Assembly (NCBI GenBank): GCA_017475965.1
Contig: JAFVEL010000019.1
Span: forward strand, 1-62,971
Direction of reading: 5' to 3'
DNA from: Alphaproteobacteria bacterium
Lineage (GTDB): Bacteria; Pseudomonadota; Alphaproteobacteria; RUG11792
Length of the DNA: 62,971 nt
The position numbers were made by a program, and so were the translations under genes. Numbering within the stretch: the stretch's first letter is position 1; every line of letters starts with the position of its first letter. Below the pieces are notes generated by a model. It searched no databases, had not been told where the DNA came from, and saw nothing but the letters and a program-made list of their open reading frames with translations. Below, in pieces: positions 23,617-62,556 of the stretch.

Positions 23617-25227
23617 TTGATTCATATGAACTCTCGTTTGATATTACTTCTAAGCACAATGATGTTATTAACAGCATGTGATATATTAACTGATAAAAAA
23701 TCTCTATCAGAATCAATATCTGATGATTCAGTGAAAAAATTAGCATCACCAGTAAAAGATGAAGTAATAATGAAAACAAGATCTATAATAAAAACTAAAC
23801 AAAATCAAATACAAATACCTAAAAAGTTTTATCAGAAAGTTTCATTGACAATAAACGAATCACTACCATTAAAATCAGTACTATATGAAATAGCCAAGCA
23901 ACTAAAAATAAATATACAAATAGATCCATCAATTGAATCTAAAGTAATATTTATGGCAGAAAATAAACCATTCATAGAAGTAATTGATGCAGTATGTGAT
24001 ATAGCAAATTTAAGATACACAATACAAAATGATTTCTTAAAAATAGAAAAAGATTTACCGTATTCTCAAAATTATGATGTACAATTTTTAAATTTATCAC
24101 GAGATAGTGAAAATAAAATAGCAATTGCTACTGAAGTAACTGGAAGTAAAGGCAACAATATCGTAAATAATAATGATTCATCTGTTTCAAACTCAGATAG
24201 TACTGTAACATTTAAAGCTAAAAGTGAATTCTGGAATGATTTAAGTAATGGTATACAAATTATATTATCTGCAAATAATCAAAATAAATATTCCGTTAAT
24301 AAACAATCTGGAATTATTACTGTTTATGCTAATTCGAAATACCAGAAAGATATACAATCATACATAGAGCAAATACGAGAAGCAAATAATAGTCAAGTAT
24401 TAATAGAAGCCAAAATAATAGAAGTTGTACTAAATAATGAATATAAAAGAGGAATAAATTGGAATATTGTATTACAAAATAGTAATATTACAACTAATTT
24501 TGCCAACAATGGTAATAACATGCCATCGTTTAGTTATAAGATATCTGATACGGATAACATATTAAAAGCACTAGAGCAATTCGGTTCAGTGAGAACTATT
24601 TCCAATCCTCGTATTACTGCAATGAACAACCAAGCTGCAGTAATAAAAATAGCTGAGAATCAAGTATATTTCAAATTGAATTATGATAAAGTGTATTCAA
24701 ATAAAGAATCACTCAGAGAAGATGTAAATATTTCTAGTGATATAAAAACAATACCAATAGGATTAGTAATGTTTGTTCAACCTTCAATAGATATAAAAAA
24801 TGGAATAGTTTCATTGTTTTTAAGACCAACTATTACAAAACTACAGAATACAGTTAATGATCCAGCTGTTGATATAGCAATACAATCTGCTAATAATCAA
24901 TCTAGAAATATTAGTAAAGATAAATATCCTGAATCAAAAATACCTATTACTGAAGTAAGAGAAGTAGCTTCAGTATTAAAATTACATGATGGTGAAGTGG
25001 CAGTTTTGGGAGGATTTATGGAGGTAATATCTGCTAAATCGAAATCAGGATTACCTTTAATAAAGGATATTCCACTATTTGGAGAATTATCTTCCGAATA
25101 TGATACAAAAGACAAAGTAGTGGAGCTAGTAATACTAGTGAAAGTAAAAATATCAGAACCAACTACACTACAACGTGCTGCCGATATCAGACTACAAAGA
25201 TTTGTACCTGACCCAAGACCTTTTTAA
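23617..25227 (+). CDS. secretin-family outer-membrane channel, lipoprotein (MshL/PilQ/GspD-like)
   Basis: Lipobox LLSTMMLLTAC. Secretin core QVLIEAKIIEVVLNNEYKRGINWN, FGSVRTISNPRITAMNNQAAVIKI and GEVAVLGGFM......GLPLIKDIPLFGELS......ELVILVKVKI. The start could instead be the ATG at 23626. Confidence 0.85.
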   Translation: MIHMNSRLILLLSTMMLLTACDILTDKKSLSESISDDSVKKLASPVKDEVIMKTRSIIKTKQNQIQIPKKFYQKVSLTINESLPLKSVLYEIAKQLKINIQIDPSIESKVIFMAENKPFIEVIDAVCDIANLRYTIQNDFLKIEKDLPYSQNYDVQFLNLSRDSENKIAIATEVTGSKGNNIVNNNDSSVSNSDSTVTFKAKSEFWNDLSNGIQIILSANNQNKYSVNKQSGIITVYANSKYQKDIQSYIEQIREANNSQVLIEAKIIEVVLNNEYKRGINWNIVLQNSNITTNFANNGNNMPSFSYKISDTDNILKALEQFGSVRTISNPRITAMNNQAAVIKIAENQVYFKLNYDKVYSNKESLREDVNISSDIKTIPIGLVMFVQPSIDIKNGIVSLFLRPTITKLQNTVNDPAVDIAIQSANNQSRNISKDKYPESKIPITEVREVASVLKLHDGEVAVLGGFMEVISAKSKSGLPLIKDIPLFGELSSEYDTKDKVVELVILVKVKISEPTTLQRAADIRLQRFVPDPRPF

Positions 25228-25508
25228 ACAAAAAATTAATAACAATATTGTAGTGTACAAATTAGTATAAATAAATAATGTATTAATACTAAAAAATATG
25301 ATAAACTAGTGATATTATAGATAAATATTAAGATAAATTTGTAATAATTATACACTAATAATAACTAATGTACAAAAATTAAGATAACATTGTTTGATAT
25401 TACAATCTCAAAAGTAAAAAAAAATAAACAAAGCAATGTTTTTTTTACTAATTTTTAATATATTCCAATATAACATAAACTTGGTCAATATACATATAAA
25501 GGGGTTTT

Positions 25509-26747
25509 ATGATATACAACAAATTTTTAACTGTAATAAGTACAACATTGCTAATTAATTTTAGTAATTCAAATGCATCTAGCTTTAAACAAGAATTTTT
25601 TAGTGGGGATATAGCAGATAATATACAGCATGACCAACAATATTGGAATGAGTGGTTACCAGTAATAAAATGTGATGCAAAAGAAACATTAAGAGATAGG
25701 TTTGAATATTGTACTAATTGGTTAATAAACTTATTAGAATCAAAACCATTCTATAATAAAATTATTCCGTTTAATTATGAATATGATTATGATATTAAAG
25801 ATATCAATGATGTTATCGATATTAAAAAATTAAAAGAAGAAATTGCAATACGTAAAATATTATTAGATGATATTGAACATAAATGTAAATTAAATGGTAA
25901 TGCTTGGAGTGAAATACCATTAATAATAAATGGTTATAATAAAGAACATCAAAGAAAGATAGGATCACATTTACAATGGGATTGTAGATTATTACATAAT
26001 CATTGGTCTATGAGTTTTGATAGAAATTATGATAATATTAAGCTAAACTTTTATCCATCATATGAATATCAAGAACCAGCATTTTATCTAAAAACTCTAA
26101 ATTCAGAGAAAACATTAAGTATTTGTTTAAGTGGAATAGAAATGGATTTATTAACAAGTAATAATTCCACCAGTAATACAGACTTATTCGCTAACTATTT
26201 GATTAATAGAAAAGATAATCAAGCTGCTACTGAAATAGCGAGATATCAAAAATATTTTACAAAGGAACAAAATGCATTGTTAGCGAGTCATATAATTTCA
26301 TACTATTTGTCATTTAAAAATGATAAAAAACAGAAAGTAGCTAAGTACTTACTAGAGAATTATATATTAAAAGATTTATTTAAAAGTATGAAACCAAAGC
26401 AATTCTTATCGTACGTTAAAAATGTAAAAACTGATGATTGGTACGAAGTAATTATATCAAAATATTTAGATAATGAATTTGGCACAGAGTATAATAAGAG
26501 TTACTTATCTTCCTTAAAGAAAATGACCTTACAATATAAAAAAGAGTTTGAAAATATTGTTTTACCTATGATTCGCAAATATACAACTGTAATATTTAAT
26601 AAATTAGTAACAAAACATAATAATTTAATTGCAAAACGACCAAATAATGATGATGATATTGTAAGAAATAGAATAAAAGCACTATTCGCAGCAGGCACTG
26701 GTAATGGAAGAATAATTGATAATGTAATGAGTTATGTAAAAATTTAA
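25509..26747 (+). CDS. hypothetical secreted protein (orphan)
   Basis: AAAGGGG lies upstream of the ATG. Signal peptide MIYNKFLTVISTTLLINFSNSNA. 412-aa uninterrupted frame. I recognise no family. Confidence 0.6.
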   Translation: MIYNKFLTVISTTLLINFSNSNASSFKQEFFSGDIADNIQHDQQYWNEWLPVIKCDAKETLRDRFEYCTNWLINLLESKPFYNKIIPFNYEYDYDIKDINDVIDIKKLKEEIAIRKILLDDIEHKCKLNGNAWSEIPLIINGYNKEHQRKIGSHLQWDCRLLHNHWSMSFDRNYDNIKLNFYPSYEYQEPAFYLKTLNSEKTLSICLSGIEMDLLTSNNSTSNTDLFANYLINRKDNQAATEIARYQKYFTKEQNALLASHIISYYLSFKNDKKQKVAKYLLENYILKDLFKSMKPKQFLSYVKNVKTDDWYEVIISKYLDNEFGTEYNKSYLSSLKKMTLQYKKEFENIVLPMIRKYTTVIFNKLVTKHNNLIAKRPNNDDDIVRNRIKALFAAGTGNGRIIDNVMSYVKI

Positions 26748-26909
26748 AAACTATATAGACAATGATATATATGTAGTATATATGTATTAAAACATTTTAC
26801 ATAATTTTATATATCAATGTACCAAATAATTAATTATTTGTAAAATTAGTAGTTGACTGAAGTTTGAATTGTTGGTAATATGTAATTGTAGCATATGTTA
26901 CTAGCATAT

Positions 26910-26986
<77 letters not shown>

Positions 26987-26989
26987 ATA

Positions 26990-28015
26990 ATGTCCTGGTT
27001 ACAATCATTATTAAAAAAGTATCATAAAAAAAAAACAAAACAAATACAATACAAAACACTTATTGAAACATTAACATTTGAACCACATAAGTTTTCATTA
27101 GTAAAAGCATTAGATTTATCAAATTTATATTCTGACACATTAATAATAAAAAATAGTTTAAGTTTTAGTTCAAAATATTCAACTATACAAAAAGTAGAAG
27201 GAGTAAAAGAGGGATACATAGAATTATATACTAATTTCCCTAGTATAATTGGTATAAATGGAACATTGCCAGATATATATGTTGAAAAATACTCATTATA
27301 TAATCTTTATACAAAAGAAGCAATAAGAGATTTTTTTGATATCTTTCATAGTTGTGGCATTAATGCTTTTTATAAAATATCAAAACAATATAATCCATCT
27401 TGTTCCAATAATATTTCTTATAAATCATTTATTGGAAAGATATTATTACAATTATCCGGATATAGTAGTGCAGAAGAATTTTATGAAGCAATTCATAATA
27501 CTAATATTCCAATGCAATTACCAATATCAACACACAACTTATTCTGGAATGAAAATAGATCAGCGTATGGATTGAAATTATTACTGTCAAGTTTTTTCAA
27601 TGTTAATATAGAAGTTCAAGAATTCTGTGAAAAACTAATAGAGTTACCAGTTGATGAACAAACTAGAATAGGTACTACTCATGGAAAATATAATAAACTT
27701 GGAATATCATCAATTCTAGATAGATTCAGTTGGGATACAACTTCTAGAATAATGGTAATAGTTGGACCATTACAATTTGAAAAATATATACAGTTTTTAC
27801 CTAAAATAAATAATCAAGATAGAAAATTTTCATTATTACAAAAAATGGAGGAACTAATAAAATTATATGTTCCATTTGATATTGAAGTGTATCTTAAAAT
27901 AATACTGGATACAAGTATTGTAAATGGAACATTCTTAAATAGATCAAAAGCACTCAATAAAGATTCCTTCTTATTTGGTAAAACTAAAGATATTTGTTTT
28001 GTAAAACTATTGTAG
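26990..28015 (+). CDS. tssG: type VI secretion baseplate subunit TssG-like
   Basis: Ordered blocks match the conserved TssG (ImpH/VasB) blocks. They are GINGTLPDIYVEKY, FFDIFHSCGINAFYKISKQYNP, ELPVDEQTRIG, LGISSILDRFSWDTTSRIMVIVGPLQFEKYIQFLP and LIKLYVPFDIEVYLKIIL. The first 10 codons of the ORF-track entry (26960) overlap the tRNA and are discarded. Confidence 0.82.
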   Translation: MSWLQSLLKKYHKKKTKQIQYKTLIETLTFEPHKFSLVKALDLSNLYSDTLIIKNSLSFSSKYSTIQKVEGVKEGYIELYTNFPSIIGINGTLPDIYVEKYSLYNLYTKEAIRDFFDIFHSCGINAFYKISKQYNPSCSNNISYKSFIGKILLQLSGYSSAEEFYEAIHNTNIPMQLPISTHNLFWNENRSAYGLKLLLSSFFNVNIEVQEFCEKLIELPVDEQTRIGTTHGKYNKLGISSILDRFSWDTTSRIMVIVGPLQFEKYIQFLPKINNQDRKFSLLQKMEELIKLYVPFDIEVYLKIILDTSIVNGTFLNRSKALNKDSFLFGKTKDICFVKLL

Positions 28016-28077
28016 TAATATATACTATTTTTATTTACTGTTCTTGATTGTTAAACCTGTTAAATGTGAATAATATT

Positions 28078-28571
28078 TTATTTAATTGGTTTTAACTGTT
28101 CCATTCTCTCATTAGTTATTTCGGTTAATTTTTCTATATCATTTTTTAATTTTTCTTTACGATCATTAATATCTAACATGACTTCTTTTTGTAGATAATA
28201 TTTTTCTTTGTCTGAAAATGAAGTTGCTATTACATCTTCATATACGTTTTTTACAATCTGTAATCTATCAATTTGTTTATATACATTTGTCTTGATAGTT
28301 TCACATATTAATATAACTGTATTTTGTTATTTACAGTTTCCAACTGTTTACGTTTCTCAATAATTTCATTGTTTGTTTGTTGATACTCCTCATTAATTTT
28401 TGGTATGTTGTCTAATGTTCTTGACATTTGGAAACATTTATTATTTAATGCTATGAGTTCTAATGGCGATAAATTACGAGAGATATCAATTGCATTGCTT
28501 GCAGATATTCCTATAATACTGCAAATTAATAGAGATACAAATTTTCTCATTATAAAATAATTCCTTTCCAA
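28078..28571 (-). pseudogene. frameshifted gene for a secreted coiled-coil orphan protein
   Basis: The 87-aa ORF (signal peptide MRKFVSLLICSIIGISASNA) stops at 28308. A shifted frame then stays open for 78 more codons (TVILICETIKTNVYKQIDRLQ...ERMEQLKPIK) down to the TAA at 28078. The frames switch within about 28308..28327. Confidence 0.55.
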
Positions 28572-28635
28572 TAAAATATTCTATCTAATATTAATATAAA
28601 ATTAACAAATCTTAATTGATCATAACATAATATTA

Positions 28636-29511
28636 TTATTTGATCGATATATTATTTTCCTTTATAATATTGTCAAGTTCGTGAATATTAAACATCTTTT
28701 TAATTGTATTTAATTGTTTATAAGCAATTCTTTGTTTTGTTTCAAAATTTTCAATATTTGGAAAAAGCATTTGAAAGTTTAATCCATTCATACAGACATT
28801 CCAATCGTATAATATTATTGCTAAATTTGCAATTATTTTGAATATCTCATTATTATTTAATACTTCTATTTTTTTATTAATATTGAATTTAGATTTAAAT
28901 AATATTTTTTCTACATCAAAATTATTATTCGCAGCTTTGCCATATATTTTTTCATAAATGTCAAATATAATGTTATGAAAAATATTAGTGTAATCATTGG
29001 TATTCCAATTATAATTTACGATCACATTCAAGTAATCAATTAGTTGATTATAGTATTCTTTATATTGATTAATATAAATGTTTTGATTATTTAACTGCAT
29101 TATGTAATTATGGATACTTGCCATTTTCCACAATTTTTCACTTTGTAATTTCTTATTAATTAATTTTTGTATATTATCACATTTAGTTCTTATTGTAAAT
29201 AAAATTGGATTTGCTTTGCTTCTATTACGAGTACTACTGGCTGTTATATTATATTTATTTGCTTCTAAGTTATGAGAATCTAATTTTCTTTTTTTTGTAA
29301 TGAAATCATGATTTAAAGACACATTGTCATCTGTATTGGTTTTTTCTTCCAAAATAATTTCATTCTTATTAATTTGATTGATAGCATTTGTACAAATATT
29401 TAAATTACTTTCTATTATATCATTATGTTCATTAGCGTTAAAATTATCTATTGCATGACTTACAGACACTAATGCAATACTGCATAATATTATAAATATT
29501 TTCTTTGCCAT
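28636..29511 (-). CDS. hypothetical secreted protein (orphan, Asn-rich helical)
   Basis: The ATG at 29511 is preceded by AGGAGG at a 6-nt spacing. Signal peptide MAKKIFIILCSIALVSVSHA. Contains the shared ICT...DFITKKRKLDS module. The ORF track extends to a GTG at 29550. Confidence 0.65.
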   Translation of the reverse strand: MAKKIFIILCSIALVSVSHAIDNFNANEHNDIIESNLNICTNAINQINKNEIILEEKTNTDDNVSLNHDFITKKRKLDSHNLEANKYNITASSTRNRSKANPILFTIRTKCDNIQKLINKKLQSEKLWKMASIHNYIMQLNNQNIYINQYKEYYNQLIDYLNVIVNYNWNTNDYTNIFHNIIFDIYEKIYGKAANNNFDVEKILFKSKFNINKKIEVLNNNEIFKIIANLAIILYDWNVCMNGLNFQMLFPNIENFETKQRIAYKQLNTIKKMFNIHELDNIIKENNISIK

Positions 29512-29843
29512 AAAATTCCTCCTAGTAAAATTTTTAAAATTACTTAACACATAAAATATTATTAAACAGAATAATGACTAAATGCAATCAAAAATTTCAC
29601 ATGTCCTTTAAATAAAATAACAATATAATCAGATTAAATAAATCCAAGTATATAGTTTATAATTAGATACTAATAACTTAATATTTTTAATACTTTATTG
29701 CACATATTTCAATCATTATTACAATTAATGTTTTTCTTATTTTTTTACAATTTCAAAAACTTGTATTAATATATTACACAATATTTGTGAATTTAGATTA
29801 AGATTTATTATAGAACCATTGCACCACTCCGTATCTTGTAGTG

Positions 29844-30191
29844 TTATTTGTAAATGCATTTCATGATTGCATCAAGACATGATTTTATATCACTTTGTAC
29901 TATTACTCCATTCAATGAATACATTAATTCTTCTAATATATAACATAATACATGTGCTATTTCTTTTTCCCTACCTTCTGTAACATTACGTACTTTTCCA
30001 TTATTATCATCAAATAATAAATTATATAGATCTGTATAACATTTGTCTATCCAGAATAAAAGATCGTAAATTAATGTATATCCTGGAGCTATTTGTTCAT
30101 TATACAACCAATTTCTTATGGTTTCATATTGTTCTGCTTTTTCCGGAGTAATACTATAATTGCACATCATCAAAAGACAAGTTATTATCAT
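29844..30191 (-). CDS. hypothetical protein, probably the 3' part of a decayed secreted-protein gene
   Basis: 115-aa ORF without a signal peptide. Immediately upstream (30192..30310), another frame encodes a signal-like IFTAAILLFSNSMC followed by NITLHYDVANGSTKHFVSRLSFNDNN and then a stop. Confidence 0.4.
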   Translation of the reverse strand: MIITCLLMMCNYSITPEKAEQYETIRNWLYNEQIAPGYTLIYDLLFWIDKCYTDLYNLLFDDNNGKVRNVTEGREKEIAHVLCYILEELMYSLNGVIVQSDIKSCLDAIMKCIYK

Positions 30192-30477
30192 TAAAACTTA
30201 AACGCGATACAAAGTGTTTTGTGGAACCATTTGCTACATCATAATGCAACGTGATGTTTGCATTTTGTTCACACATAGAATTACTAAACAATAAAATTGC
30301 AGCAGTGAAAATTTAATAATTAAAACCATATAATAAATATGTTCAATTTCATACTAACATATATTTCATTATTACTCAATATTATTTTATTATGATTTGC
30401 AAATACTTCCTGTATAATTATAGAAAAACTATATTATATATAAACAAATTAAGTTATATATAATACATAATTAATTG

Positions 30478-41415: not shown

Positions 41416-42834
41416 TTGCCTACAATTAATAATAATATTCAAGAAATACATCTAATAAATTGTAAAGAATTATCCAGTATAGATTTTAGTAAGTACACTA
41501 GTGTAAAAAAAATATGTATGTATGGAAATACTTTGGAAAAATCCACTGAAGCCCAATGGAAAACAATGATAGAACAGCTATATACATTATCAACTAACAT
41601 TACCAAACAAGAGCAACAGAAAATAGCATTTTTTGCGATCCCTAAAACTATTACTGTGTCAGCATCATTAAAACATATTCAATTGCCTAGGACTTATACT
41701 GGAGAAATTCCAAAGAACAGTAATTCATCACAATCACAAATACAATATTTATCAGCATTGGGAGCAACATCTGTAGCTCAAGATGCGTTTAAAGACCAGC
41801 AAGCACTAACAGAACTGTATTTACCAAATGTTAGAGAAGTAAAATCTAATGCATTTTATCATTGCTTTAAAATAGAGAAAGTGTCTCTTGATAAATGTGA
41901 AGTATTAGAAGAAGGAGCATTTAGAACAAATAGAGCATTACAAAGCATGTACTTACCATTAGTAAAAAAACTTGGAAAACTATCAATAGCATATACTAGA
42001 AGTAATAAATTAAAGATAGGTGACTTAAATAATCAAGAATTTAAATCTCAAAGTGAAGCAGGATTATATTTACCATTCTGTGAAGAAATAGGAGACGGTG
42101 CATGCAGGGGAGATAATGAAGATAAAGTACAAATTGTCAATGTTAATTGTCCAGTATGTAAAACTCTAGGAGTGGAAGCATTTAGGCAATTAACAGCATT
42201 AAAAATAGTTAATATACCAGAGGTAGAAACTATTGGTCAATCTGCATTTGAAGATTGTAGTTTACTAACAAAAGTTGGAGATATTAATGATATATCAAAT
42301 AATTCAATATATCTTCCTAAAGTAAAATCAATAGCAAATTACGCATTTAAAAATGGAGATAAAGGTCAAAATATCATTATACAGTCTATTATATTACCAG
42401 AATGCGAAAGAATTGGGAGAGAAGCATTTATGAGATATAGAACAATGAAAACATTATCGATACCAAAATGTAAATCAATAGGTATTCTATCGTTCTATGA
42501 TCCATATAAGTTACAAGAACTTGAAGCTACCGAACTGGAAACAATCGGGGCAAATGCATTCCAATATGCTAGTGTACCAATACGCAGTTTTAAAACAGTA
42601 AATGGAAATAAAAAAATTGATAATGGATATTTAGAATTGCCAAATTGTAAAAAAATAGAAACAAAGGCATTCTGGGGCAGTGGTGCACATTCTATCAGAG
42701 GAACCAATGTAGTAAAATTACCAAAGTGTGAGAGTGCGGCTGATGATTCATTCCGTGCTGCATATCTAACAACTCTAGATGCATCAAAATTAAGTAATAG
42801 GGCAAAAATATTATCTACTAGTAAATCTGGTTAG
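41416..42834 (+). CDS. BspA-type leucine-rich-repeat protein, 3' segment of the interrupted gene
   Basis: Repeats of the form (I/V)..(N/D)AF..C..L..(V/I).LP.(V/C)..(I/L)G..AF occur about 10 times. Examples are SVAQDAFKDQQALTELYLPNVREVKSNAFYHC and ETIGQSAFEDCSLLTKV. The only start is a TTG, and the frame is open back to 41233. Confidence 0.7.
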   Translation: MPTINNNIQEIHLINCKELSSIDFSKYTSVKKICMYGNTLEKSTEAQWKTMIEQLYTLSTNITKQEQQKIAFFAIPKTITVSASLKHIQLPRTYTGEIPKNSNSSQSQIQYLSALGATSVAQDAFKDQQALTELYLPNVREVKSNAFYHCFKIEKVSLDKCEVLEEGAFRTNRALQSMYLPLVKKLGKLSIAYTRSNKLKIGDLNNQEFKSQSEAGLYLPFCEEIGDGACRGDNEDKVQIVNVNCPVCKTLGVEAFRQLTALKIVNIPEVETIGQSAFEDCSLLTKVGDINDISNNSIYLPKVKSIANYAFKNGDKGQNIIIQSIILPECERIGREAFMRYRTMKTLSIPKCKSIGILSFYDPYKLQELEATELETIGANAFQYASVPIRSFKTVNGNKKIDNGYLELPNCKKIETKAFWGSGAHSIRGTNVVKLPKCESAADDSFRAAYLTTLDASKLSNRAKILSTSKSG

Positions 42835-44358: not shown

Positions 44359-44937
44359 TTATTCTCTATAAACAGTGTTACTATTATACGTATTTAAAGA
44401 TTTTAACTTCAATTCTGCTTCCTTTTTACATATTAATATGTATTCCCTCAAATCTTTTATATCATCATTTTTTGATGCTTTATCAAGCCAATATATTGCT
44501 TTTCGTAATGTTTTACTGGATTTACTATACTTAAAGTAAACTGCACCAGCATTGAATTGAGCAGCACCATTTCCCATCTTTGCTGCCTTGACATAACATC
44601 TTAGAGCTTCCTTATGGTTTTTCTTTCTTATATCTCCGGAATAATATCCATCTCCTATAGAATTAATAGCTTCTGGAGAACCCATTTTCGAGGCTTTTGT
44701 TAAATAAATATCAGCATTTTTAAAATCTTTCTCAGATAAGTAAATTGTACCTAGTAAATAGCAACAATAAGCATTATGTATATTTCTTTGTAAATACTGC
44801 TTAGCTATTTTTGATTTATGAGGTAGTAGTTCAAAAATATAATTATCTATAGATTCTTTATTAGTATTATTTGTATTTGAAGCCGGCAATACATTACTAG
44901 TTATCAATAATAATATCAACAAAATTTTCAGTTTCAT
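44359..44937 (-). CDS. Sel1-repeat (TPR-like) secreted protein
   Basis: Signal peptide MKLKILLILLLITSNVLPA. Sel1-type repeats include AINSIGDGYYSGDIRKKNHKEALRCYVKAAKMGNGAAQFNAGAVY and LRKAIYWLDKASKN. Confidence 0.8.
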   Translation of the reverse strand: MKLKILLILLLITSNVLPASNTNNTNKESIDNYIFELLPHKSKIAKQYLQRNIHNAYCCYLLGTIYLSEKDFKNADIYLTKASKMGSPEAINSIGDGYYSGDIRKKNHKEALRCYVKAAKMGNGAAQFNAGAVYFKYSKSSKTLRKAIYWLDKASKNDDIKDLREYILICKKEAELKLKSLNTYNSNTVYRE

Positions 44938-46952: not shown

Positions 46953-47324
46953 TCAGCATTCAGTAAATAATTTCCTTAAATTATTATGTCCAACAAAATT
47001 AATATTATACATTTCGTAAATTTCTCGTTCATACCAATTTGCATTTTCAAATATATCTATAATACTTCTAGTTAATTTGTTTGTTACATGAGTGTATATA
47101 CAAACATTCTCATTATTTTCATAATTTAATAAGTGATAATAAATAGTATTACTATAATTATCATTTCTAGTATTAATAGCAAAACAATCAATTAAATTGA
47201 AATTATTATTTTTGAATATTAACAAAATATCATATACATTATTATTATCAACTAATAAGTATAATAAATTATTTAATATTTCTCTCTCACAATTATATTG
47301 TTGTAATATTGTATCAATATCCAT
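46953..47324 (-). CDS. NuoC (complex I 30-kDa subunit) family fragment, likely relic
   Basis: The C terminus ENANWYEREIYEMYNINFVGHNNLRKLFTEC matches the alphaproteobacterial NuoC block ANWYEREV.DM.G..F.GHPDLRRILTDYGF. It stops before the GHPLRKDFP segment. There are no nuoB or nuoD neighbours. Confidence 0.6.
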   Translation of the reverse strand: MDIDTILQQYNCEREILNNLLYLLVDNNNVYDILLIFKNNNFNLIDCFAINTRNDNYSNTIYYHLLNYENNENVCIYTHVTNKLTRSIIDIFENANWYEREIYEMYNINFVGHNNLRKLFTEC

Positions 47325-49906: not shown

Positions 49907-51895
49907 TTAATTTTCTTTATGCAATTTTTTATATATTATTTCATCATCACATTTCGGACAGTATTCATGTTCTCCAGCTAAGTATCCATGTTTAGGACAT
50001 ATGGAAAATGTTGGTGTTACTGTAATATATGGTATTTTATATTTGCTTAAAACTTTTCTAACTAGATTCTTACATGCTGTGCCACTGGACATTCTTTCTC
50101 CCATGTACAAATGCACTACTGTTCCTCCAGTGTATTTTCTCTGCAATTCCTCTTGATGATCTAACGCCTCGAATAAATCATCAGTATATCCAACTGGTAA
50201 TTGTGAAGAATTAGTATAATAATGAGAATTATTAGCAACGTTATTTCCAGCTTGTATTATGTCGGGATATCTCTTTTTGTCTTCTCTAGCAAATCTATAC
50301 ATACAGCCTTCAGCTGGTGTTGCTTCTAGATTATATAAATGTCCAGTTTGGACTTGAAATTTAACTAGTTTAGCTCTAATAAAATCTAACACTTTTATTG
50401 CTAATTCTTTGCCTTCGTGGTCAGATATGTCATGTTTATCATTAGTGAAATTCCTTACCATTTCATTAATTCCATTAACACCAATGGTCGAAAAGTGATT
50501 CTTAAATGTTCCTAAGTATCTCTTAGTATATGGATATAATCCTTTATTCATTAATTCAACTACAGTATTTCTTTTGGTTTCTAAACAAGATTTAGATAAT
50601 TCCAATAATTCTTCTAAATGATTATATAATAATTGTAAGTTACCTTTATGTAAATATCCCAATCTAGCACAATTTATAGTTACAACTCCTACTGAACCAG
50701 TTTGTTCAGCTGATCCGAATAATCCATTTCCCCTCTTAAGTAATTCTCTTAAATCTAATTGCAATCTACAACACATTGATCTTATCATATTTGGAGATAA
50801 ATCAGAATTAACAAAATTCTGAAAGTAAGGAATACCATACTTAGCTGTCATTTCAAATAGTAAATCGGTATTTTCTCCATCCCAGTTGAAATCCTTAGTT
50901 ATATTATATGTAGGTATTGGGAAAGTAAATATACGTCCTTTTGCATCTCCATCAATCATAGTTTGTATAAATGCCTTGTTTATAATGTCCATTTCTTTTT
51001 GAAGATCACCATAAGTAAAATCAACTTCTGTACCACCTATTATTGGATGTTCATCTCTCAATCCTTCTGGACAAGTCCAATCTAAAGTAACATTACTAAA
51101 TGGTGTCTGAGTCCCCCAACGTGTTGGGACATTCATATTAAATATAAACGATTGTATACAATGATATACCTCATCATAAGACATATTATCTATTTTAACA
51201 AAAGGGGCTAAATAAGTATCAAAACTACTAAATGCTTGTGCTCCTGCCCATTCATTTTGTAATGTACCAAGGAAATTAACCATTTGCCCAAGAGCAGTAG
51301 ATAAATGCTTCGGAGGAGTGGATTCTATTTTTCCAACTACTCCATTAAAACCTTCAGTTAAAAGCATTTTGAGTGACCACCCAGCACAGTATCCACTTAA
51401 CATATCCAAGTCATGAATATGCAAAAATCCTTCCACATGAGCTGCTGATACTTTGGGGTGATATACATTATTTAACCAATAATTTGCTATTACTTTACCA
51501 GAGAGATTTAATATTAGTCCACCTAACGAATAACCTAAATTAGCATTAGCATGAACTCTCCAATCTATATTATCTATATATTCTCTTACTGCATATCCGG
51601 CATTTATATTACCACCAGTACTATTTTTATTGGCATGAACATTTGCGTTATTATTAGTTTTTGCATTATTATTAATTAATGCTAATGTCTCTGCTATTAC
51701 TGAACTTATACTTTCTGCTTTTACTTTTATATCAGATGCAGTATCTTCAAGTTTTGATATTACTAAATTAGTTAATCCATTTATTTCCAATGGATTTGTT
51801 TTAGTAGCTTTGTGTATTGTATTAATAATTTTCTCTTTATTAAAATTTTCAATTAAACCATTTCGTTTTATTACATAAGATATATTTTGTTTCAT
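49907..51895 (-). CDS. nrdD: anaerobic (class III) ribonucleoside-triphosphate reductase NrdD-like, C-terminally short
   Basis: ATP-cone YVIKRNGLIENFNKEKI, then FLHIHDLD, RSMCCRL, GSVGVVTINCARL, LYNLEATPAE, YYTNSS, and Zn ribbon CPKHGYLAGEHEYCPKC. The ORF stops 15 aa after the last Cys with no R..GY motif. Confidence 0.85.
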   Translation of the reverse strand: MKQNISYVIKRNGLIENFNKEKIINTIHKATKTNPLEINGLTNLVISKLEDTASDIKVKAESISSVIAETLALINNNAKTNNNANVHANKNSTGGNINAGYAVREYIDNIDWRVHANANLGYSLGGLILNLSGKVIANYWLNNVYHPKVSAAHVEGFLHIHDLDMLSGYCAGWSLKMLLTEGFNGVVGKIESTPPKHLSTALGQMVNFLGTLQNEWAGAQAFSSFDTYLAPFVKIDNMSYDEVYHCIQSFIFNMNVPTRWGTQTPFSNVTLDWTCPEGLRDEHPIIGGTEVDFTYGDLQKEMDIINKAFIQTMIDGDAKGRIFTFPIPTYNITKDFNWDGENTDLLFEMTAKYGIPYFQNFVNSDLSPNMIRSMCCRLQLDLRELLKRGNGLFGSAEQTGSVGVVTINCARLGYLHKGNLQLLYNHLEELLELSKSCLETKRNTVVELMNKGLYPYTKRYLGTFKNHFSTIGVNGINEMVRNFTNDKHDISDHEGKELAIKVLDFIRAKLVKFQVQTGHLYNLEATPAEGCMYRFAREDKKRYPDIIQAGNNVANNSHYYTNSSQLPVGYTDDLFEALDHQEELQRKYTGGTVVHLYMGERMSSGTACKNLVRKVLSKYKIPYITVTPTFSICPKHGYLAGEHEYCPKCDDEIIYKKLHKEN

Positions 51896-53780: not shown

Positions 53781-56750
53781 TTATTCTTGGTTGTTCTTTA
53801 ATTTGTTTATCTTATATTGTATTACATCAAGAAATAGTTTTTTTACAGGACCTTTTTCATAATTTTTTATGTCTTTTGTACACTCATACAGTTGTTCAAT
53901 AATTTTCTTAAAAAATTTAACATCTTCTGACTCGTTGTTTATTTGATTATTAGTAAAAGGCATATCAATATTGAAATTTTTATTTCTTTTGAACTCACAA
54001 TCCAGAAATTTGTTAGAATTGTCAATTGCGAATTTCATCGCATCATACTGTAATTTAAATAATATCTTTGAATTTTCATCATTCGAATTACGCTTATTTA
54101 TTACGTAATCAAGTGTGGAAATTAATGTATTTTCAAAATGCTGAGCCATTGTATCATAATATATTGTAATTTCTGGATTGTTTTCATTACAATAATATAA
54201 TGTATTTGCGTCTAAAAATCTAGCTACAAAATTCCTAATAAATGGTGTTTTATTTATTGTTTTTAGGAACTTGTTATTATTATATACTATTGATTCATAA
54301 TACTCATTAATATTTGAAAATATTTGACTGTTAATATTATTTTGAAATTTTTTCAATGCTGTATTGGTGTCATTTGATAGTGTTATTTCATTTTCAATAC
54401 TTCTTGAGGTACAATTGATTATAAGATTTTGCCATGATGTATTATAATTTTTTTGTAAGCATGTATCGATTATATTATTAATATCGGGATTGTTTTTTAT
54501 CTTTGGTAGTTGTAATGCTTGCAACTGCCATTGTTTGTTTTGTTGAATTTTATTGTTTAATTTCTGAACTTCTATAATGTAATAAATAGTATCTAATATC
54601 TTTTTAATATCTGTATAATTAACATCTTGTTCATTTCCAGGTGTTGATCCATTATTTTGTTTTATATTGTTATTAAATTGTTTTACAATATTATTATTCC
54701 AATAATTTAGCAATTTTAATAATACGTAGTTATTATGTAAATTAGTACCATTAATATTATTACTATCTGTGAATCGTATATTATTTAATAGTGTTGTTTT
54801 ATCTAACAAAATATTATCTCTTTCTTTCTGTGTATTAATTGCATTTTGCTTATTGATTTCATCGGAAATTTTCTCAAATATGTCATCGAATTTCTCGTTA
54901 GAAATTGTCATATTACCGTTCTTATTCTTCTTATTTTTCTTTTTATTATGAAATTTTTTATCTTTATTATCTAAGATATTTAACTTTTGATTTTGTATTG
55001 TATTATTATTTATTTTGTTATTTTCTTCTTGTGTGTTGTGTTCAGGTTCGGGAACATACAGTTGCTCTTCTTTAGAATAAACCAATTTACCGAAATTCAA
55101 TGCGTTGTGATTATTATTTGTCTTTATTTCCTTTTCCTCTTCTGTTGTATCTTCATTTGCATGTTCTTTCATATAATTGTTATTGGTATTAAGCATAGTT
55201 TGTTCAAGTTTCTCTCTAGTTTCTGAATTTATACATATATCATTATTAAATATTTGTTTGGGATTTATTGTTTCATTATTTTCAATATTTTTTATATTAT
55301 TTAAACTTACGTCTTTTGTAATGTCATTTGGTGTATTAATTAAATTTATTGCTGTTTTATATTCATTATTTATATTGTCATATATTACTTCAGGTTCATT
55401 TTGCTGCACTTCATCTTTAACATAAATTGTTTTTCCATTTTTTTGTACTACTGTTCTAAATTCATACTCATTTTCACTGCTATTGTTTAGTGGAATTCTA
55501 CTACTATTATTATTAATATTTACTGTATTTTTATAGTTATTTTTTTTGTAATATTGATTGCTTTTATCGGATTTATTTGTTTTGTTATATTTATAATGTT
55601 GTTTCTTGTTGTATTTATTCCTTTTAGATTTTATTTTTTGTTCTGAAAGCATTATATTGTCGTTTTTTTCTTGCTCTTCTTCTACAGATTTTGAATTTAA
55701 TAATTCCGCTAGATTCTTTGGTTTTTGTTGTATTTTATTTGGTTTAGTTTTATTGTCCATACTGTTTTGTGTTAATATTGTATTTTCGTTTTCAATTTGA
55801 TTAGTTTTCATTTGATCTATTCCTATACTTTGAAGTACATATTTTGTTCCATCTTTTGTATTATTAATATCAAAATTATTACTTGCACTTTGATTAATAT
55901 TGTTTTCAATTGTGTTATTGTTAAACAATTGATTTATTTGCATACTCAGCATATTACACATTAATTCATTACACTGTGCTAACGATCTCATTATATTAAG
56001 TTGTTGATTATATAAATATATGTTCTGTTGCGAATTATGTGCGATTTGGTGAAGCTGACCAATTGTATTACAATTCGAGGATATTTTATTTATTAATAAA
56101 TCTATATTCGTTGTGTTGTTTTGATAAGTATAATTATTTGATATGTCTAACAACATTTGATTTTTTGGAATATATGGTTTTGCATCTAGATTCTTTTTTA
56201 CATGATTAAAATCGGTTCTTTGCTGTACTTTCCAATTTAAATTATTATTATTGTTTTTCCAGTTTGTATCTTCTATTTCAAAGTAGTGTTTATTATCTAT
56301 ATTGGGATAGTGTTTATTATTTTTATGCATTTTATATTTATTAAATTTTATTTTATTATTTTTATATGTATTGTTTTTTAATTTTGGATATTCTGTTGTT
56401 TCTGTAATGGTTTCGATTACATTATGAAATGCATCATTATTATTTTTGAATTCACCACCAGGTGTTTCTTTATTTCCTTCTTCATCGCTACTACTTATAT
56501 CCTCATATATATTTTTTAAACTATATTCTGCTTTATTATTACTATTTATTACATTACTGTATTGGGCAATATTCCTATTGTATGTTGTATTAAAACCCAA
56601 ATCTAAATTAAAGTTTGTGGTATTAATAATGGCATTAGGATCTAATTGTAAATCATTATTGTTATATGTGCTTGCATCCATTCCAATTGCTTGGTAATTA
56701 TTCACTATTATAGCTATTGGCAAGAGTTTTAATAAATTTTTTATACTCAT
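53781..56750 (-). CDS. giant Asn/Lys-rich secreted orphan protein (989 aa)
   Basis: Signal-like MSIKNLLKLLPIAIIVNNYQAIG. 989 uninterrupted codons in a stop-rich AT context. The middle is low complexity and the C-terminal third is more complex. No family recognised. Confidence 0.65.
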   Translation of the reverse strand: MSIKNLLKLLPIAIIVNNYQAIGMDASTYNNNDLQLDPNAIINTTNFNLDLGFNTTYNRNIAQYSNVINSNNKAEYSLKNIYEDISSSDEEGNKETPGGEFKNNNDAFHNVIETITETTEYPKLKNNTYKNNKIKFNKYKMHKNNKHYPNIDNKHYFEIEDTNWKNNNNNLNWKVQQRTDFNHVKKNLDAKPYIPKNQMLLDISNNYTYQNNTTNIDLLINKISSNCNTIGQLHQIAHNSQQNIYLYNQQLNIMRSLAQCNELMCNMLSMQINQLFNNNTIENNINQSASNNFDINNTKDGTKYVLQSIGIDQMKTNQIENENTILTQNSMDNKTKPNKIQQKPKNLAELLNSKSVEEEQEKNDNIMLSEQKIKSKRNKYNKKQHYKYNKTNKSDKSNQYYKKNNYKNTVNINNNSSRIPLNNSSENEYEFRTVVQKNGKTIYVKDEVQQNEPEVIYDNINNEYKTAINLINTPNDITKDVSLNNIKNIENNETINPKQIFNNDICINSETREKLEQTMLNTNNNYMKEHANEDTTEEEKEIKTNNNHNALNFGKLVYSKEEQLYVPEPEHNTQEENNKINNNTIQNQKLNILDNKDKKFHNKKKNKKNKNGNMTISNEKFDDIFEKISDEINKQNAINTQKERDNILLDKTTLLNNIRFTDSNNINGTNLHNNYVLLKLLNYWNNNIVKQFNNNIKQNNGSTPGNEQDVNYTDIKKILDTIYYIIEVQKLNNKIQQNKQWQLQALQLPKIKNNPDINNIIDTCLQKNYNTSWQNLIINCTSRSIENEITLSNDTNTALKKFQNNINSQIFSNINEYYESIVYNNNKFLKTINKTPFIRNFVARFLDANTLYYCNENNPEITIYYDTMAQHFENTLISTLDYVINKRNSNDENSKILFKLQYDAMKFAIDNSNKFLDCEFKRNKNFNIDMPFTNNQINNESEDVKFFKKIIEQLYECTKDIKNYEKGPVKKLFLDVIQYKINKLKNNQE

Positions 56751-61839: not shown

Positions 61840-62556
61840 ATGAAGAATACTTCATGTAAAATTGTTTTGTCTTTTATTTTTTTACTACAAATTATTAATG
61901 TTAATTATGGTTATAGTAGTAATTATGAAATGATACATGGCGAATATTGCACATTACATGTTAATTATAATAATTACAAAGATGAGATACAAAATAATAA
62001 TCCATCATGGTTGGATAGTATGAATACTTGTAATAATAGTTATAATGAATATTTTAAAGAACAACGTAATACTAAATACATTGAATCACTCATTAAAGAT
62101 ATTGGGAAAAATTCATTACCTGAGATTGAAGTTATTAATACAAGTACACAAACTATTGCTGATATTGTTAAAGATGAAATACAAACAATTGAGTTTAATA
62201 AACTCACTATAGATACTGATTGGTATACAAAACCAGGAGGTGGTAATAGTCAGAATACATTCGAATCAAAATGTAATATAACGTACGATGGTGGCACTTG
62301 CTGTAGCGTTAATATCAGTAAAAAATCCTGTTGTGATTTCTTTACCAATATGTTTAATAAAATAAAATCATTTATACTTCCCAAAAGAAAACGAGTTGAA
62401 TTAAAGAATTTATATGATTCTGAATATTTAACTGCTGAGTTAAAGAAGAATGTAGATGAAATAATTAATGATTCTAAAAAACAACTGGAGCAGTTTGTTA
62501 AAAATTATTATACCAAGATACCAAATACATTATCAGAAAAAGAAAAACAACAATAA
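61840..62556 (+). CDS. secreted Cys-rich orphan protein
   Basis: Signal peptide MKNTSCKIVLSFIFLLQIINVNYG. Cys cluster KCNITYDGGTCCSVNISKKSCCDFF, then a charged helical tail. Confidence 0.6.
   Translation: MKNTSCKIVLSFIFLLQIINVNYGYSSNYEMIHGEYCTLHVNYNNYKDEIQNNNPSWLDSMNTCNNSYNEYFKEQRNTKYIESLIKDIGKNSLPEIEVINTSTQTIADIVKDEIQTIEFNKLTIDTDWYTKPGGGNSQNTFESKCNITYDGGTCCSVNISKKSCCDFFTNMFNKIKSFILPKRKRVELKNLYDSEYLTAELKKNVDEIINDSKKQLEQFVKNYYTKIPNTLSEKEKQQ

What the first reader, a model, noticed from the sequence alone, without database searches (positions are those of the whole stretch)
26990..28015. Stand-alone TssG-like T6SS baseplate gene abutting tRNA-fMet
Seen: the ATG at 26990, 3 nt after the tRNA CCA end, opens a 341-aa frame. 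In correct order it carries GINGTLPDIYVEKY, FFDIFHSCGINAFYKISKQYNP, GLKLLLSSFFNVNIEVQEF..ELPVDEQTRIG, LGISSILDRFSWDTTSRIMVIVGPLQFEKYIQFLP and LIKLYVPFDIEVYLKIIL. These align with the conserved TssG (ImpH/VasB) blocks G.nGpLP..yTE, FlDiFhHR...lfYRAW...P, LG....LG.r.WD.q..f.i.lGPL....y..FLP. Established: TssG is the core of the T6SS baseplate wedge and is normally encoded as tssE-tssF-tssG inside a compact cluster of about 13 genes. Here neither flank has a recognisable T6SS gene. Upstream are a secretin, an orphan and a tRNA, and downstream are decayed secreted orphans. Inference: either this reduced genome runs a T6SS from scattered loci, or a baseplate wedge protein has been retained or repurposed without a canonical cluster.
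Basis: partly seen in the sequence, partly recalled or inferred. Interest (0 to 1): 0.7.

Follow-up and report, generated by a model that had tools for sequence, protein, structure and literature searches.

The report
Lone T6SS baseplate gene behind tRNA-fMet
This is a genuine, intact type VI secretion baseplate gene (tssG) in a tiny AT-rich Holosporales-like gut or rumen symbiont whose secretion-system genes are scattered around the genome, a layout already known for this group; the one new detail is that tssG sits directly behind the initiator tRNA gene and is almost certainly transcribed from its promoter.

Summary
The ORF at 26990-28015 (341 aa) starts 3 nt after a tRNA-Met(CAT) gene and is a full-length TssG: Pfam PF06996 E=7.6e-37, and solved TssG chains are the only significant PDB sequence and fold hits. 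It is under purifying selection (dN/dS about 0.18). The same arrangement recurs in independent assemblies.

No other T6SS gene lies in the window. However, tssB-tssC sit on another 25-30% GC contig of the same assembly, between housekeeping genes.

Two details appear to be new:
- tssG is separated even from tssF in every relative examined.
- An almost invariant initiator-type tRNA with a conserved promoter lies 3-72 nt upstream of tssG in three deep branches of the clade. This implies a tRNA-tssG co-transcript (inferred, not shown).

tssF and the remaining core genes could not be located with the capped searches.

Verdict: a new member of a known kind, of modest interest.

The parts
26853..26881 (+). 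Sigma-70-type promoter-like site TTGACT-N17-TAATAT (with TG before the -10), about 28 nt upstream of the tRNA. It is the presumed promoter of the tRNA-tssG transcript.
   Evidence: Found by the scan. A single match is not significant in this AT-rich DNA (44 sites found against 36 expected). However, a TTGAC[TAG] -35 box occupies the same alignment columns upstream of the tRNA in five of the six other lineages aligned (in L026 it is displaced by 4 nt), and in the four window-clade sequences it is followed 17 nt later by TAA[TCA]AT, while the surrounding sequence has diverged.
26910..26986 (+). tRNA-Met(CAT), initiator (fMet) type, with CCA encoded. The window copy has A instead of C at position 3 (26912), which gives an A3.G70 mismatch.
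   Evidence: ARAGORN; Rfam RF00005, 54.9 bits. C1xA72 and A11:U24 are read from the sequence. The tRNA is nearly invariant across 7 lineages. Position 3 is C in three other contigs of the same species.
26990..28015 (+). tssG: the T6SS baseplate wedge subunit TssG, 341 aa, intact, with no Shine-Dalgarno sequence and a 3-nt spacer after the tRNA.
   Evidence: PF06996 E=7.6e-37 over the full length. TIGR03347 E=7.5e-35, 120.5 bits, below its 143.3 cut-off. PDB profile hits only to TssG. Foldseek top hits 6giy_C at 5.8e-5 and 6n38_G at 3.1e-4. dN/dS 0.16-0.20. 3218 family members found by the profile.
25509..26747 (+). Conserved 412-aa signal-peptide protein of unknown function, syntenic with tRNA-tssG in the closest species. 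A context gene; no link to the T6SS has been shown.
   Evidence: No Pfam or NCBIfam hit. 48-51% identical orthologues lie directly upstream of the tRNA in L006, L017 and L029. dN/dS about 0.33.
23617..25227 (+). Secretin (MshL/GspD-like). A context gene of a reduced T2SS/type IV pilus system, not a T6SS part.
   Evidence: PF00263 E=6.4e-25; TIGR02519 MshL E=2e-50, below cut-off. The order secretin-orphan-tRNA-tssG is kept in L029. A reduced T2SS/T4P is reported in small Holosporaceae (10.1101/719211).

Best explanation
The ORF encodes a functional TssG, the subunit that ties two TssF copies to TssK trimers in each wedge of the type VI secretion baseplate. The host is a strongly reduced alphaproteobacterium with about 25% GC, of the Holosporales type, found in ruminant gut metagenomes.

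Its T6SS genes are not clustered. tssG stands alone here, and tssB-tssC stand alone at another locus. The remaining core genes are presumed to lie at further loci, as published for other Holosporales.

tssG has no room for a promoter of its own. It lies 3 nt after the CCA of an initiator tRNA gene that carries a conserved sigma-70-type promoter. It is therefore most likely made as the distal part of a tRNA-fMet-tssG precursor. RNase P and 3'-end processing would release the tRNA and leave a tssG mRNA with almost no leader and no Shine-Dalgarno sequence. That fits a protein needed in few copies (six per baseplate, from general knowledge of the structure).

Shown here: gene identity, intactness, purifying selection, stand-alone position in all relatives, sheath genes elsewhere in the same assembly, and conservation of the tRNA-tssG junction. 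Inferred: co-transcription and processing, presence of the other core genes, and activity of the machine.
For: - **Identity:**
- **Selection:** dN/dS is 0.16-0.20 against relatives of 72-78% identity, and 0.20 for a 96% identical pair. 58 residues are invariant across 11 sequences down to 41% identity.
- **Sheath genes:** tssB and tssC are in the same assembly and the same sequencing run, in a housekeeping context, on a contig of matching GC content. A second species shows the same co-occurrence: tssG P0004 and tssC P0070 are both in ERZ1029110.
- **Stand-alone position:** tssG is alone in all 13 distinct relatives' contexts examined.
- **tRNA linkage:** tRNA-Met lies directly upstream, with spacers of 3, 13, 15, about 17, 24, 26 and 72 nt, in the window, L018, L023/L026, L022, L029, L006/L017 and L028. 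These fall in three deep branches of a TssG tree. No terminator-like site was found in 25200-28700.
- **Literature:** Holosporales T6SS genes sit at four or more loci and are transcribed in Ca. Bodocaedibacter (PMC8163844). The T6SS is retained in genomes of about 600 kb, together with a reduced T2SS/T4P and LRR proteins, both of which are also present in this window (10.1101/719211). The T6SS is conserved in almost all Holosporineae (PMC11909080).
- **Precedent for a tRNA-fMet plus mRNA operon:** metY-nusA-infB (PMC6511841).
Against: - tssF, the obligate partner of TssG, was not found. It is absent next to any tssG of the clade and from about 94 kb of this organism's DNA (window, L013, L031, L034).
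- No vgrG, tssK, tssL, tssM, tssA, tssE or hcp was seen either. Only a small part of the genome could be read, so this is absence of data rather than absence of genes.
- Assigning the tssBC contig to the same genome rests on shared samples and base composition, not on a closed genome.
- The AlphaFold model is poor (pLDDT 57.7, TM 0.23 to TssG), so the fold match is only qualitative.
- The NCBIfam equivalog cut-off is not reached.
- About half of the window's non-ribosomal genes also lack a Shine-Dalgarno sequence, so its absence at tssG is not a special signal.
- Two sub-lineages (L005; L009/L019/L020) have tssG without the tRNA, so the linkage is not obligatory.
Confidence: 0.78

Rival explanations
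1. Relic or repurposed gene: the T6SS has been lost and tssG survives alone, either on its way to decay or doing another job.
For: No partner baseplate gene was seen in the window or beside any orthologue. The neighbourhood does show ongoing gene decay: glpF-glpK is intact in L029, split in L006, L007 and L017, and gone in the window.
Against: The ORF is intact in all 23 clade members found, and 58 residues are invariant across the 11 aligned. dN/dS is about 0.18. tssB-tssC are intact in the same assembly and highly conserved, 72% identical to a termite-gut Holosporales copy. The T6SS is retained in nearly all sequenced Holosporineae (PMC11909080).
Confidence: 0.07
2. Remnant of a genomic island: a T6SS island integrated at the 3' end of the tRNA-fMet gene and then eroded, leaving only tssG. 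On this view the tRNA adjacency records an integration event and is not an expression unit.
For: From general knowledge, tRNA 3' ends are common integration sites. In the window clade the DNA downstream of tssG is variable and rich in orphans.
Against: There is no integrase and no repeat of the tRNA 3' end anywhere in the window. GC content matches the flanks. The same orientation and short spacer are kept in lineages whose TssG is only 36-44% identical and whose other neighbours are all different. That fits a long-maintained unit better than a decaying island.
Confidence: 0.05
3. Neutral compaction: tssG is a normal T6SS gene, but its position behind the tRNA has no regulatory meaning. It is read-through by accident of genome shrinkage, or it is transcribed from a promoter inside or upstream of the tRNA that was not recognised.
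For: Spacer length varies from 3 to 72 nt, and two sub-lineages lack the tRNA. Promoter-like hexamers are everywhere in this AT-rich DNA, 44 found against 36 expected.
Against: With a 3-nt spacer, any transcript covering the start codon must begin in or before the tRNA. The linkage persists in three deep branches while every other neighbour changes.
Confidence: 0.1
4. Artefact: a chimeric contig or mis-binned fragment from another T6SS-bearing bacterium.
For: The source is a metagenome assembly.
Against: The same junctions occur in four independent assemblies and in related species. Base composition is uniform. The amino-acid composition of the protein is as AT-biased as the rest of the genome.
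Confidence: 0.01

Closest known systems
Dispersed T6SS of Holosporales endosymbionts (Ca. Bodocaedibacter vickermanii, Paracaedibacteraceae, Caedimonadaceae; Ca. Cytomitobacter and Ca. Nesciobacter)
   Same: The host is an alphaproteobacterial, host-associated, reduced genome. T6SS core genes are split over several loci among housekeeping genes. There is no recognisable hcp next to tssC. A reduced T2SS/T4P secretin and LRR proteins are present in the same genome (PMC8163844, 10.1101/719211, PMC11909080).
   Different: The published conserved units are [tssG-tssF] and [tssB-tssC-hcp]. Here tssG has no tssF beside it in any of the 13 distinct relatives' contexts, and tssC is followed by an HtrA-like protease. 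The tRNA-fMet gene directly upstream of tssG is not mentioned in those papers. The habitat is the anaerobic ruminant gut, and the window encodes NrdD.
TssG of the solved TssK-TssF-TssG(-TssE) baseplate wedge (PDB 6N38, 6GIY/6GJ1)
   Same: These are the only significant PDB matches by sequence profile and by fold. The match is over the full Pfam length, and the conserved G-x-G-x-LP...Y and DF(F/L)DIF(H/S) blocks align.
   Different: Identity is only about 15-16%. The profile E-value against the PDB chains is weak (about 2e-3) and covers only residues 75-135. The model is of low confidence, so the TssK-binding 'foot' loops cannot be compared. The gene context is not tssE-tssF-tssG.
E. coli metY-rimP-nusA-infB operon (and the tRNA-tufB operon, from memory)
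   Same: An initiator tRNA gene heads a transcription unit that continues into protein-coding genes. The tRNA is cut out of the precursor, and that cleavage affects the downstream mRNA (PMC6511841, citing Regnier and Grunberg-Manago 1989).
   Different: In E. coli there are terminators, an internal promoter and a long spacer between the tRNA and the first ORF, and the downstream genes serve translation. Here the spacer is 3-72 nt, no internal promoter is possible in the window, and the cargo is a secretion-system gene. Co-transcription has not been shown here.

Membership tests
TssG (Pfam PF06996 / NCBIfam TIGR03347) | Significant, full-length match to the family profile above the curated Pfam cut-off | tested here: met
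   127.6 bits against a cut-off of 24.6, E=7.6e-37, covering profile positions 4-296 of 304.
TssG (Pfam PF06996 / NCBIfam TIGR03347) | Score above the NCBIfam equivalog cut-off | tested here: not met
   120.5 bits against a cut-off of 143.3, although E=7.5e-35. The protein is divergent and compositionally biased. NCBI nevertheless names the 72% and 40% identical relatives TssG.
TssG (Pfam PF06996 / NCBIfam TIGR03347) | Fold like solved TssG | tested here: inconclusive
   The two top Foldseek hits are TssG chains (E=5.8e-5 and 3.1e-4, probability 0.99-1.00). However, TM is 0.23 and the model pLDDT is 57.7.
TssG (Pfam PF06996 / NCBIfam TIGR03347) | Partner TssF (and TssK, TssE) encoded in the same genome | not testable with these tools
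   None was found in about 94 kb of this organism or beside any orthologue.
TssG (Pfam PF06996 / NCBIfam TIGR03347) | Co-occurrence with the contractile sheath genes tssB and tssC | tested here: met
   VipA and VipB genes lie on contig k141_822640 of the same assembly and in the same Logan run, at 25-30% GC. Assignment to the same genome is inferred.
Holosporales-type dispersed T6SS | T6SS core genes at several separate loci among housekeeping genes | tested here: met
   tssG lies between a tRNA and pnp. tssBC lies between plsY and an htrA-like gene on another contig.
Holosporales-type dispersed T6SS | Conserved unit [tssG-tssF] | tested here: not met
   No tssF and no ORF of about 600 aa with a TssF hit lies next to tssG in the window or in the 13 distinct relatives' contexts.
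Holosporales-type dispersed T6SS | Conserved unit [tssB-tssC-hcp] | tested here: not met
   tssC is followed by a PDZ/trypsin-like protease in L012, L013, L015 and L005. This is consistent with the reported lack of Hcp in reduced Holosporaceae (10.1101/719211).
Holosporales-type dispersed T6SS | The host belongs to Holosporales | tested here: inconclusive
   Alphaproteobacterial permuted tmRNA (RF01849). Public record titles of relatives read 'uncultured Holosporaceae bacterium' (75% identical TssG) and 'Holosporales bacterium'. No phylogenomic placement was done here.
Bacterial initiator tRNA (tRNA-fMet) | C1xA72 mismatch, A11:U24 and a CAU anticodon | tested here: met
   Read from the sequence; determinants as listed in PMC3017606.
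Bacterial initiator tRNA (tRNA-fMet) | Three consecutive G-C pairs, 29-31:39-41 | tested here: not met
   A29-U41, G30-C40, G31-C39 in all seven lineages. This is a two-GC variant, as described for some mycoplasmas (PMC3017606).
tRNA-led operon (metY-nusA-infB type) | tRNA and ORF on the same strand with no promoter or terminator between them | tested here: met
   The spacer is 3 nt, and no terminator-like site was found in 25200-28700.
tRNA-led operon (metY-nusA-infB type) | A single precursor transcript demonstrated | not testable with these tools
   No transcriptome data were available.
tRNA-integrated genomic island | Integrase and a direct repeat of the tRNA 3' end | tested here: not met
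   No integrase Pfam hit in the flanks. The 25-nt tRNA 3' end occurs only once in the window, allowing 3 mismatches. No relevant direct repeats were found.

The most novel reading that the evidence does not exclude
The tRNA-fMet-tssG pair may be an ancient, selectively maintained expression unit. On this reading, supply of a T6SS baseplate subunit is tied to transcription and processing of the initiator tRNA in a whole clade of anaerobic gut-protist symbionts. A further possibility is a baseplate reorganised so that tssG no longer needs to be made together with tssF, perhaps working with the unannotated ~100-aa 'LIHRxLQ' protein that accompanies tssG in five of the relatives' lineages.
Probability: 0.12. 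Interest if true: 0.55.

Novelty: new member of a known kind. Interest (0 to 1): 0.3.

Why it matters
- **Lineage extension.** It extends the Holosporales-type dispersed, Hcp-less T6SS to an undescribed lineage of very AT-rich ruminant-gut bacteria. These are likely symbionts of anaerobic protists, but the host has not been identified.
- **Degree of dispersal.** It shows that operon break-up of a multi-protein machine can go as far as single genes while each gene stays under purifying selection.
- **Practical consequence.** Cluster-based T6SS detectors will miss or under-call such systems. A recent survey of rumen ciliate symbionts reported no complete T6SS by direct homology search (10.1101/2025.07.29.667580).
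- **A testable case.** The conserved tRNA-fMet-tssG junction is a small example of a structural gene hitch-hiking on a tRNA promoter in a reduced genome.

Tried and rejected
- **tssF and other core genes.**
  - Pfam scans of all window ORFs of 90 aa or more, and of unknown ORFs in related loci, gave no T6SS family other than TssG.
  - The genome contigs and metagenome-contig scans with the TssG alignment returned only 8 loci and 1 locus, all with stand-alone tssG.
  - The last contig look-up, on an outgroup TssG (P0158), hit a 1.2-kb contig and showed nothing useful.
  - Reading beyond the window ends (L031, L034) found an rRNA operon, dnaG, rpoD and lon, but no T6SS gene.
- **Large orphans as hidden T6SS parts.** The 989-aa window ORF, the 987-aa ORF in L009 and the 604, 620, 648 and 708-aa ORFs near tssG or tssBC were tested. 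They are unrelated to each other apart from the 620- and 648-aa ORFs of L006 and L017, which are 93% identical orthologues, are low-complexity, and have no Pfam hit.
- **Small tssG-linked protein.** A weak hit of the 'LIHRxLQ' family to window 28081-28326(-) had E=2.7 and was dropped. It disappeared with a better profile.
- **Special Shine-Dalgarno-less initiation signal.** Rejected, because many housekeeping genes in the window also lack a Shine-Dalgarno sequence.
- **RNA fold of the junction.** The minimum-free-energy fold did not even recover the cloverleaf and was not used.
- **Plasmid search with TssC.** This gave only canonical clusters at 60% identity or less (Azospirillum), too distant to serve as queries.
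Full report
**Observation.** The window is uniformly AT-rich, at about 22-27% GC outside the ribosomal-protein operon. ARAGORN finds a 77-nt tRNA-Met(CAT) at 26910-26986 on the plus strand, and Rfam confirms it. The sequence reads ...GCAACCA ATA ATG. The ATG at 26990 is therefore 3 nt after the encoded CCA and opens a 341-codon frame ending at 28015. The longer TTG-initiated ORF from 26960 would start inside the tRNA. Gene callers on four independent assemblies chose the 341-aa product. The N-terminus MSW(L/F)KSLF is conserved in relatives, one of which uses GTG at the same place.

**Identity.**
- Pfam T6SS_TssG (PF06996) matches residues 34-321 to profile positions 4-296 of 304, at E=7.6e-37 and 127.6 bits.
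- NCBIfam TIGR03347 gives E=7.5e-35, but its 120.5 bits fall below the equivalog cut-off of 143.3.
- A profile of 11 clade members hits only two distinct PDB sequences, both TssG: 6n38_G and 6giy_C/6gj1. The hits are weak (E about 2e-3) and cover only the GxGxLP...DFxDIF block.
- The AlphaFold model from this shallow alignment is poor (pLDDT 57.7, pTM 0.40). Its two top Foldseek hits in the PDB are nevertheless the same TssG chains, at E=5.8e-5 and 3.1e-4 with probability 0.99-1.00. The following hits are phage or diffocin baseplate proteins at non-significant E-values, and TM-scores are low at 0.23.
- A full HMMER scan of 1.84 billion representative proteins finds 3218 family members at E<=1e-3. 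Scores drop sharply after about 15 clade members (above 180 bits) to the general TssG family (152 bits or less).

The protein is a true but divergent TssG belonging to a small, isolated clade. The word-indexed search of 5.8 billion proteins found only 23 members.

**Is the gene alive?** Codon-based comparison with orthologues of 72-78% amino-acid identity gives dN/dS of 0.16-0.20. A 96% identical pair gives 0.20. Synonymous sites are close to saturation for the distant pairs, so these values are approximate. Every clade member has an intact ORF of about 303-357 aa, and 58 residues are invariant across 11 sequences down to 41% identity. This is purifying selection, not decay.

**Organism and reality of the locus.**
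- The identical protein is encoded on contigs from ENA assemblies ERZ27256839 (69 kb), ERZ28654847 and ERZ27256837, and from Logan run SRR12529325.
- The window differs from the 69-kb contig at 6 of 21026 aligned positions.
- Sample names (XIEF21, STEW18, RUG isolates) point to ruminant gastrointestinal metagenomes.
- The window carries a permuted alphaproteobacterial tmRNA (RF01849, 161.5 bits), a class I lysyl-tRNA synthetase and an anaerobic ribonucleotide reductase, NrdD.
- Record titles of relatives in GTDB representative genomes read 'uncultured Holosporaceae bacterium' (75% identical TssG) and 'Holosporales bacterium' (41%).
- I did not run a phylogenomic placement, so the Holosporales assignment relies on those titles and on gene content.

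**Surroundings.**
- Upstream lie the str/S10/spc/alpha ribosomal operons on the minus strand. Next come a secretin (PF00263; best NCBIfam match MshL, below cut-off) and a 412-aa signal-peptide protein without family hits, followed by the tRNA and tssG.
- Downstream are minus-strand ORFs of 87, 304 and 115 aa without hits, two of them starting with signal-peptide-like segments, and then pnp.
- No ORF of 90 aa or more in the 63-kb window has another T6SS Pfam hit, even at lenient thresholds for the small unknown ORFs.

**Is there a T6SS elsewhere in the genome?**
- I used the TssC of a termite-gut Holosporales MAG as query. That MAG has tssB-tssC 4 kb from its own stand-alone tssG. The search recovered a group of 487-aa, AT-biased TssC proteins.
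- One of them, P0071, is encoded next to tssB on a 32-kb contig of the same assembly as the window (ERZ27256839, k141_822640) and in the same Logan run (SRR12529325). The context is plsY-tssB-tssC-htrA-like protease among housekeeping genes (ExbBD, OmpH, SurA-like, ssb, dapB). The contig is 24-30% GC.
- A second species shows the same pairing of samples: tssG P0004 and tssC P0070 both occur in ERZ1029110.
- The sheath genes therefore exist, are intact and highly conserved, and lie at a different, non-clustered locus.
- I could not find tssF, tssK, tssE, tssA, tssL, tssM, vgrG or hcp.

**What is already known.**
[quoted passage not shown] It also reports that they are transcribed.
- The preprint 10.1101/719211 reports that Holosporaceae with genomes of about 600 kb keep most T6SS components but lack Hcp and TssJ. 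It also reports a reduced T2SS/T4P and LRR proteins in those genomes. The window likewise has a secretin and a BspA-type LRR protein.
- The review PMC11909080 calls the T6SS conserved in almost all Holosporineae genomes, including the smallest.

**What differs from the published pattern.** In the 13 distinct contexts of clade members that I could read, tssG is never followed or preceded by tssF or by any ORF with a TssF hit. This covers TssG identities from 36% to 80%. Its neighbours are housekeeping genes that differ from lineage to lineage. Likewise, tssC is followed by a protease rather than hcp.

**The tRNA junction.**
- The tRNA has the initiator hallmarks C1xA72 and A11:U24, and is very close to my recollection of E. 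coli tRNAfMet. It has only two of the three anticodon-stem G-C pairs, because 29:41 is A-U (determinants from PMC3017606).
- The same, almost invariant tRNA lies directly upstream of tssG, on the same strand, in seven lineages:

| Locus | TssG identity to the window | Spacer (nt) |
|---|---|---|
| window | 100% | 3 |
| L018 | 75% | 13 |
| L029 | 74% | 24 |
| L006 / L017 | 72-73% | 26 |
| L022 | 44% | about 17 |
| L023 / L026 | 36-37% | 15 |
| L028 | 39% | 72 |

- In a midpoint-rooted neighbour-joining tree of TssG, these fall in three deep branches. The two groups without the tRNA are nested among them: L005, and L009/L019/L020, where a NUDIX gene overlaps the tssG start. The linkage is therefore probably ancestral and was lost twice (this is a rough tree).
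- A TTGAC[TAG] -35 box occupies the same alignment columns upstream of the tRNA in five of the six other lineages (in L026 it is shifted by 4 nt), and within the window clade it is followed 17 nt later by TAA[TCA]AT. A single such match would mean nothing in this AT-rich DNA, where 44 sites were found against 36 expected.
- No terminator-like site was found between 25200 and 28700.
- With 3 nt between the CCA and the ATG, any tssG transcript in the window must start in or before the tRNA. I therefore infer a tRNA-fMet-tssG precursor, with the tRNA released by RNase P and 3' processing. That would leave an mRNA with almost no leader.
- There is no Shine-Dalgarno sequence; the upstream sequence is CCUCCGCAACCAAUA. 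Roughly half of the non-ribosomal genes in the window lack one too, so I attach no special meaning to this.
- The nearest precedent is the E. coli metY-nusA-infB operon. There the initiator tRNA heads the transcript and is excised, and the cleavage initiates decay of the downstream mRNA (PMC6511841).
- No att-like repeat of the tRNA 3' end and no integrase were found, so an eroded tRNA-integrated island is unlikely.

**Local evolution.** In the 74% identical species (L029) the order is rpsL operon, secretin, orphan, tRNA, tssG, then glpF-glpK on the opposite strand. In L006, L007, L008 and L017, glpK is split into fragments. In the window both genes are gone, and orphan ORFs occupy the space. 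The 412-aa orphan has 48-51% identical orthologues in the same position in L006, L017 and L029.

**Verdict.**
- The gene is a working part, under selection, of a Holosporales-type dispersed T6SS, not an orphan curiosity. That organisation is already published for the order.
- The extra fragmentation (tssG without tssF) and the conserved tRNA-fMet-tssG unit are new details of moderate interest.
- The main open point is the unverified presence of tssF and the other core genes. It can be settled by scanning the public MAGs named in the next steps.

Noticed in passing
L005:9597-9932(-), L009:6444-6749, L019:6437-6745, L020:6559-6870, L022:6865-7188, L029:13453-13800 (alignment A2): A family of ~100-115-aa proteins with the invariant core LIHRxLQ lies immediately next to tssG in five lineages, and 2.4 kb away, behind glpF-glpK, in L029. 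It has no Pfam, NCBIfam or PDB sequence match. No copy was found in the window by a six-frame HMM search. It may be an unrecognised T6SS accessory or baseplate partner.
   Followed up: partly
window 26912: The window's tRNA-fMet has A at position 3, where three other contigs of the same species and all relatives have C. This creates an A3.G70 mismatch in a base pair (3:70) that contributes to formylation. It is either a strain SNP or a consensus error.
   Followed up: yes
window 26937-26951 and the same tRNA in L006, L018, L022, L026, L028, L029: The initiator tRNA of the whole clade has A29-U41 instead of the first of the three conserved anticodon-stem G-C pairs. This deviation has so far been discussed mainly for mycoplasmas (PMC3017606).
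   Followed up: partly
window 61840-62556 (+); L033:3661-4377; L034:56-772: A 238-aa ORF without Pfam hits occurs on 12 contigs, mostly very short ones, next to different neighbours. In L034 it is followed by a PDDEXK_2 transposase-like ORF. It is probably a multi-copy mobile or repeat element that breaks the assemblies.
   Followed up: partly
window 28016-30477, compared with L029:11077-13320 and L006/L007/L017: Stepwise loss of glpF-glpK downstream of tssG. The genes are intact in L029, glpK is split into several ORFs in L006, L007, L008 and L017, and both are absent in the window, where signal-peptide orphans of 87, 304 and 115 aa take their place.
   Followed up: yes
window 46953-47324 (-): A 123-aa ORF matches only part of the complex I 30-kDa subunit (NuoC, PF00329). 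It stands alone between sspB and an unknown ORF. It is likely a remnant of a lost NADH dehydrogenase operon, in a genome that also encodes the anaerobic reductase NrdD (49907-51895).
   Followed up: no
window 41416-42834 (+), 44359-44937 (-), 53781-56750 (-): Candidate host-interaction proteins: a BspA-type LRR protein (PF13306, E=1.6e-26), a Sel1/TPR protein, and a 989-aa asparagine-rich orphan with no family hit and no similarity to a 987-aa orphan near tssG in L009.
   Followed up: partly
L031:1-4353 (contig k141_819549, about 3-7 kb upstream of window position 1): An rRNA operon (partial 16S, three tRNAs, 23S, 5S) lies just upstream of the window start. Its 16S fragment could be used to place the organism phylogenetically.
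   Followed up: no
L012/L013:9394-12931; L015:9391-12817; L005:2959-6332(-): plsY-tssB-tssC is followed by an HtrA-like PDZ/trypsin protease in the rumen clade. tssB-tssC-protease is also kept in the termite-gut Holosporales MAG. This is a conserved linkage of the sheath genes to a periplasmic protease in place of hcp.
   Followed up: partly
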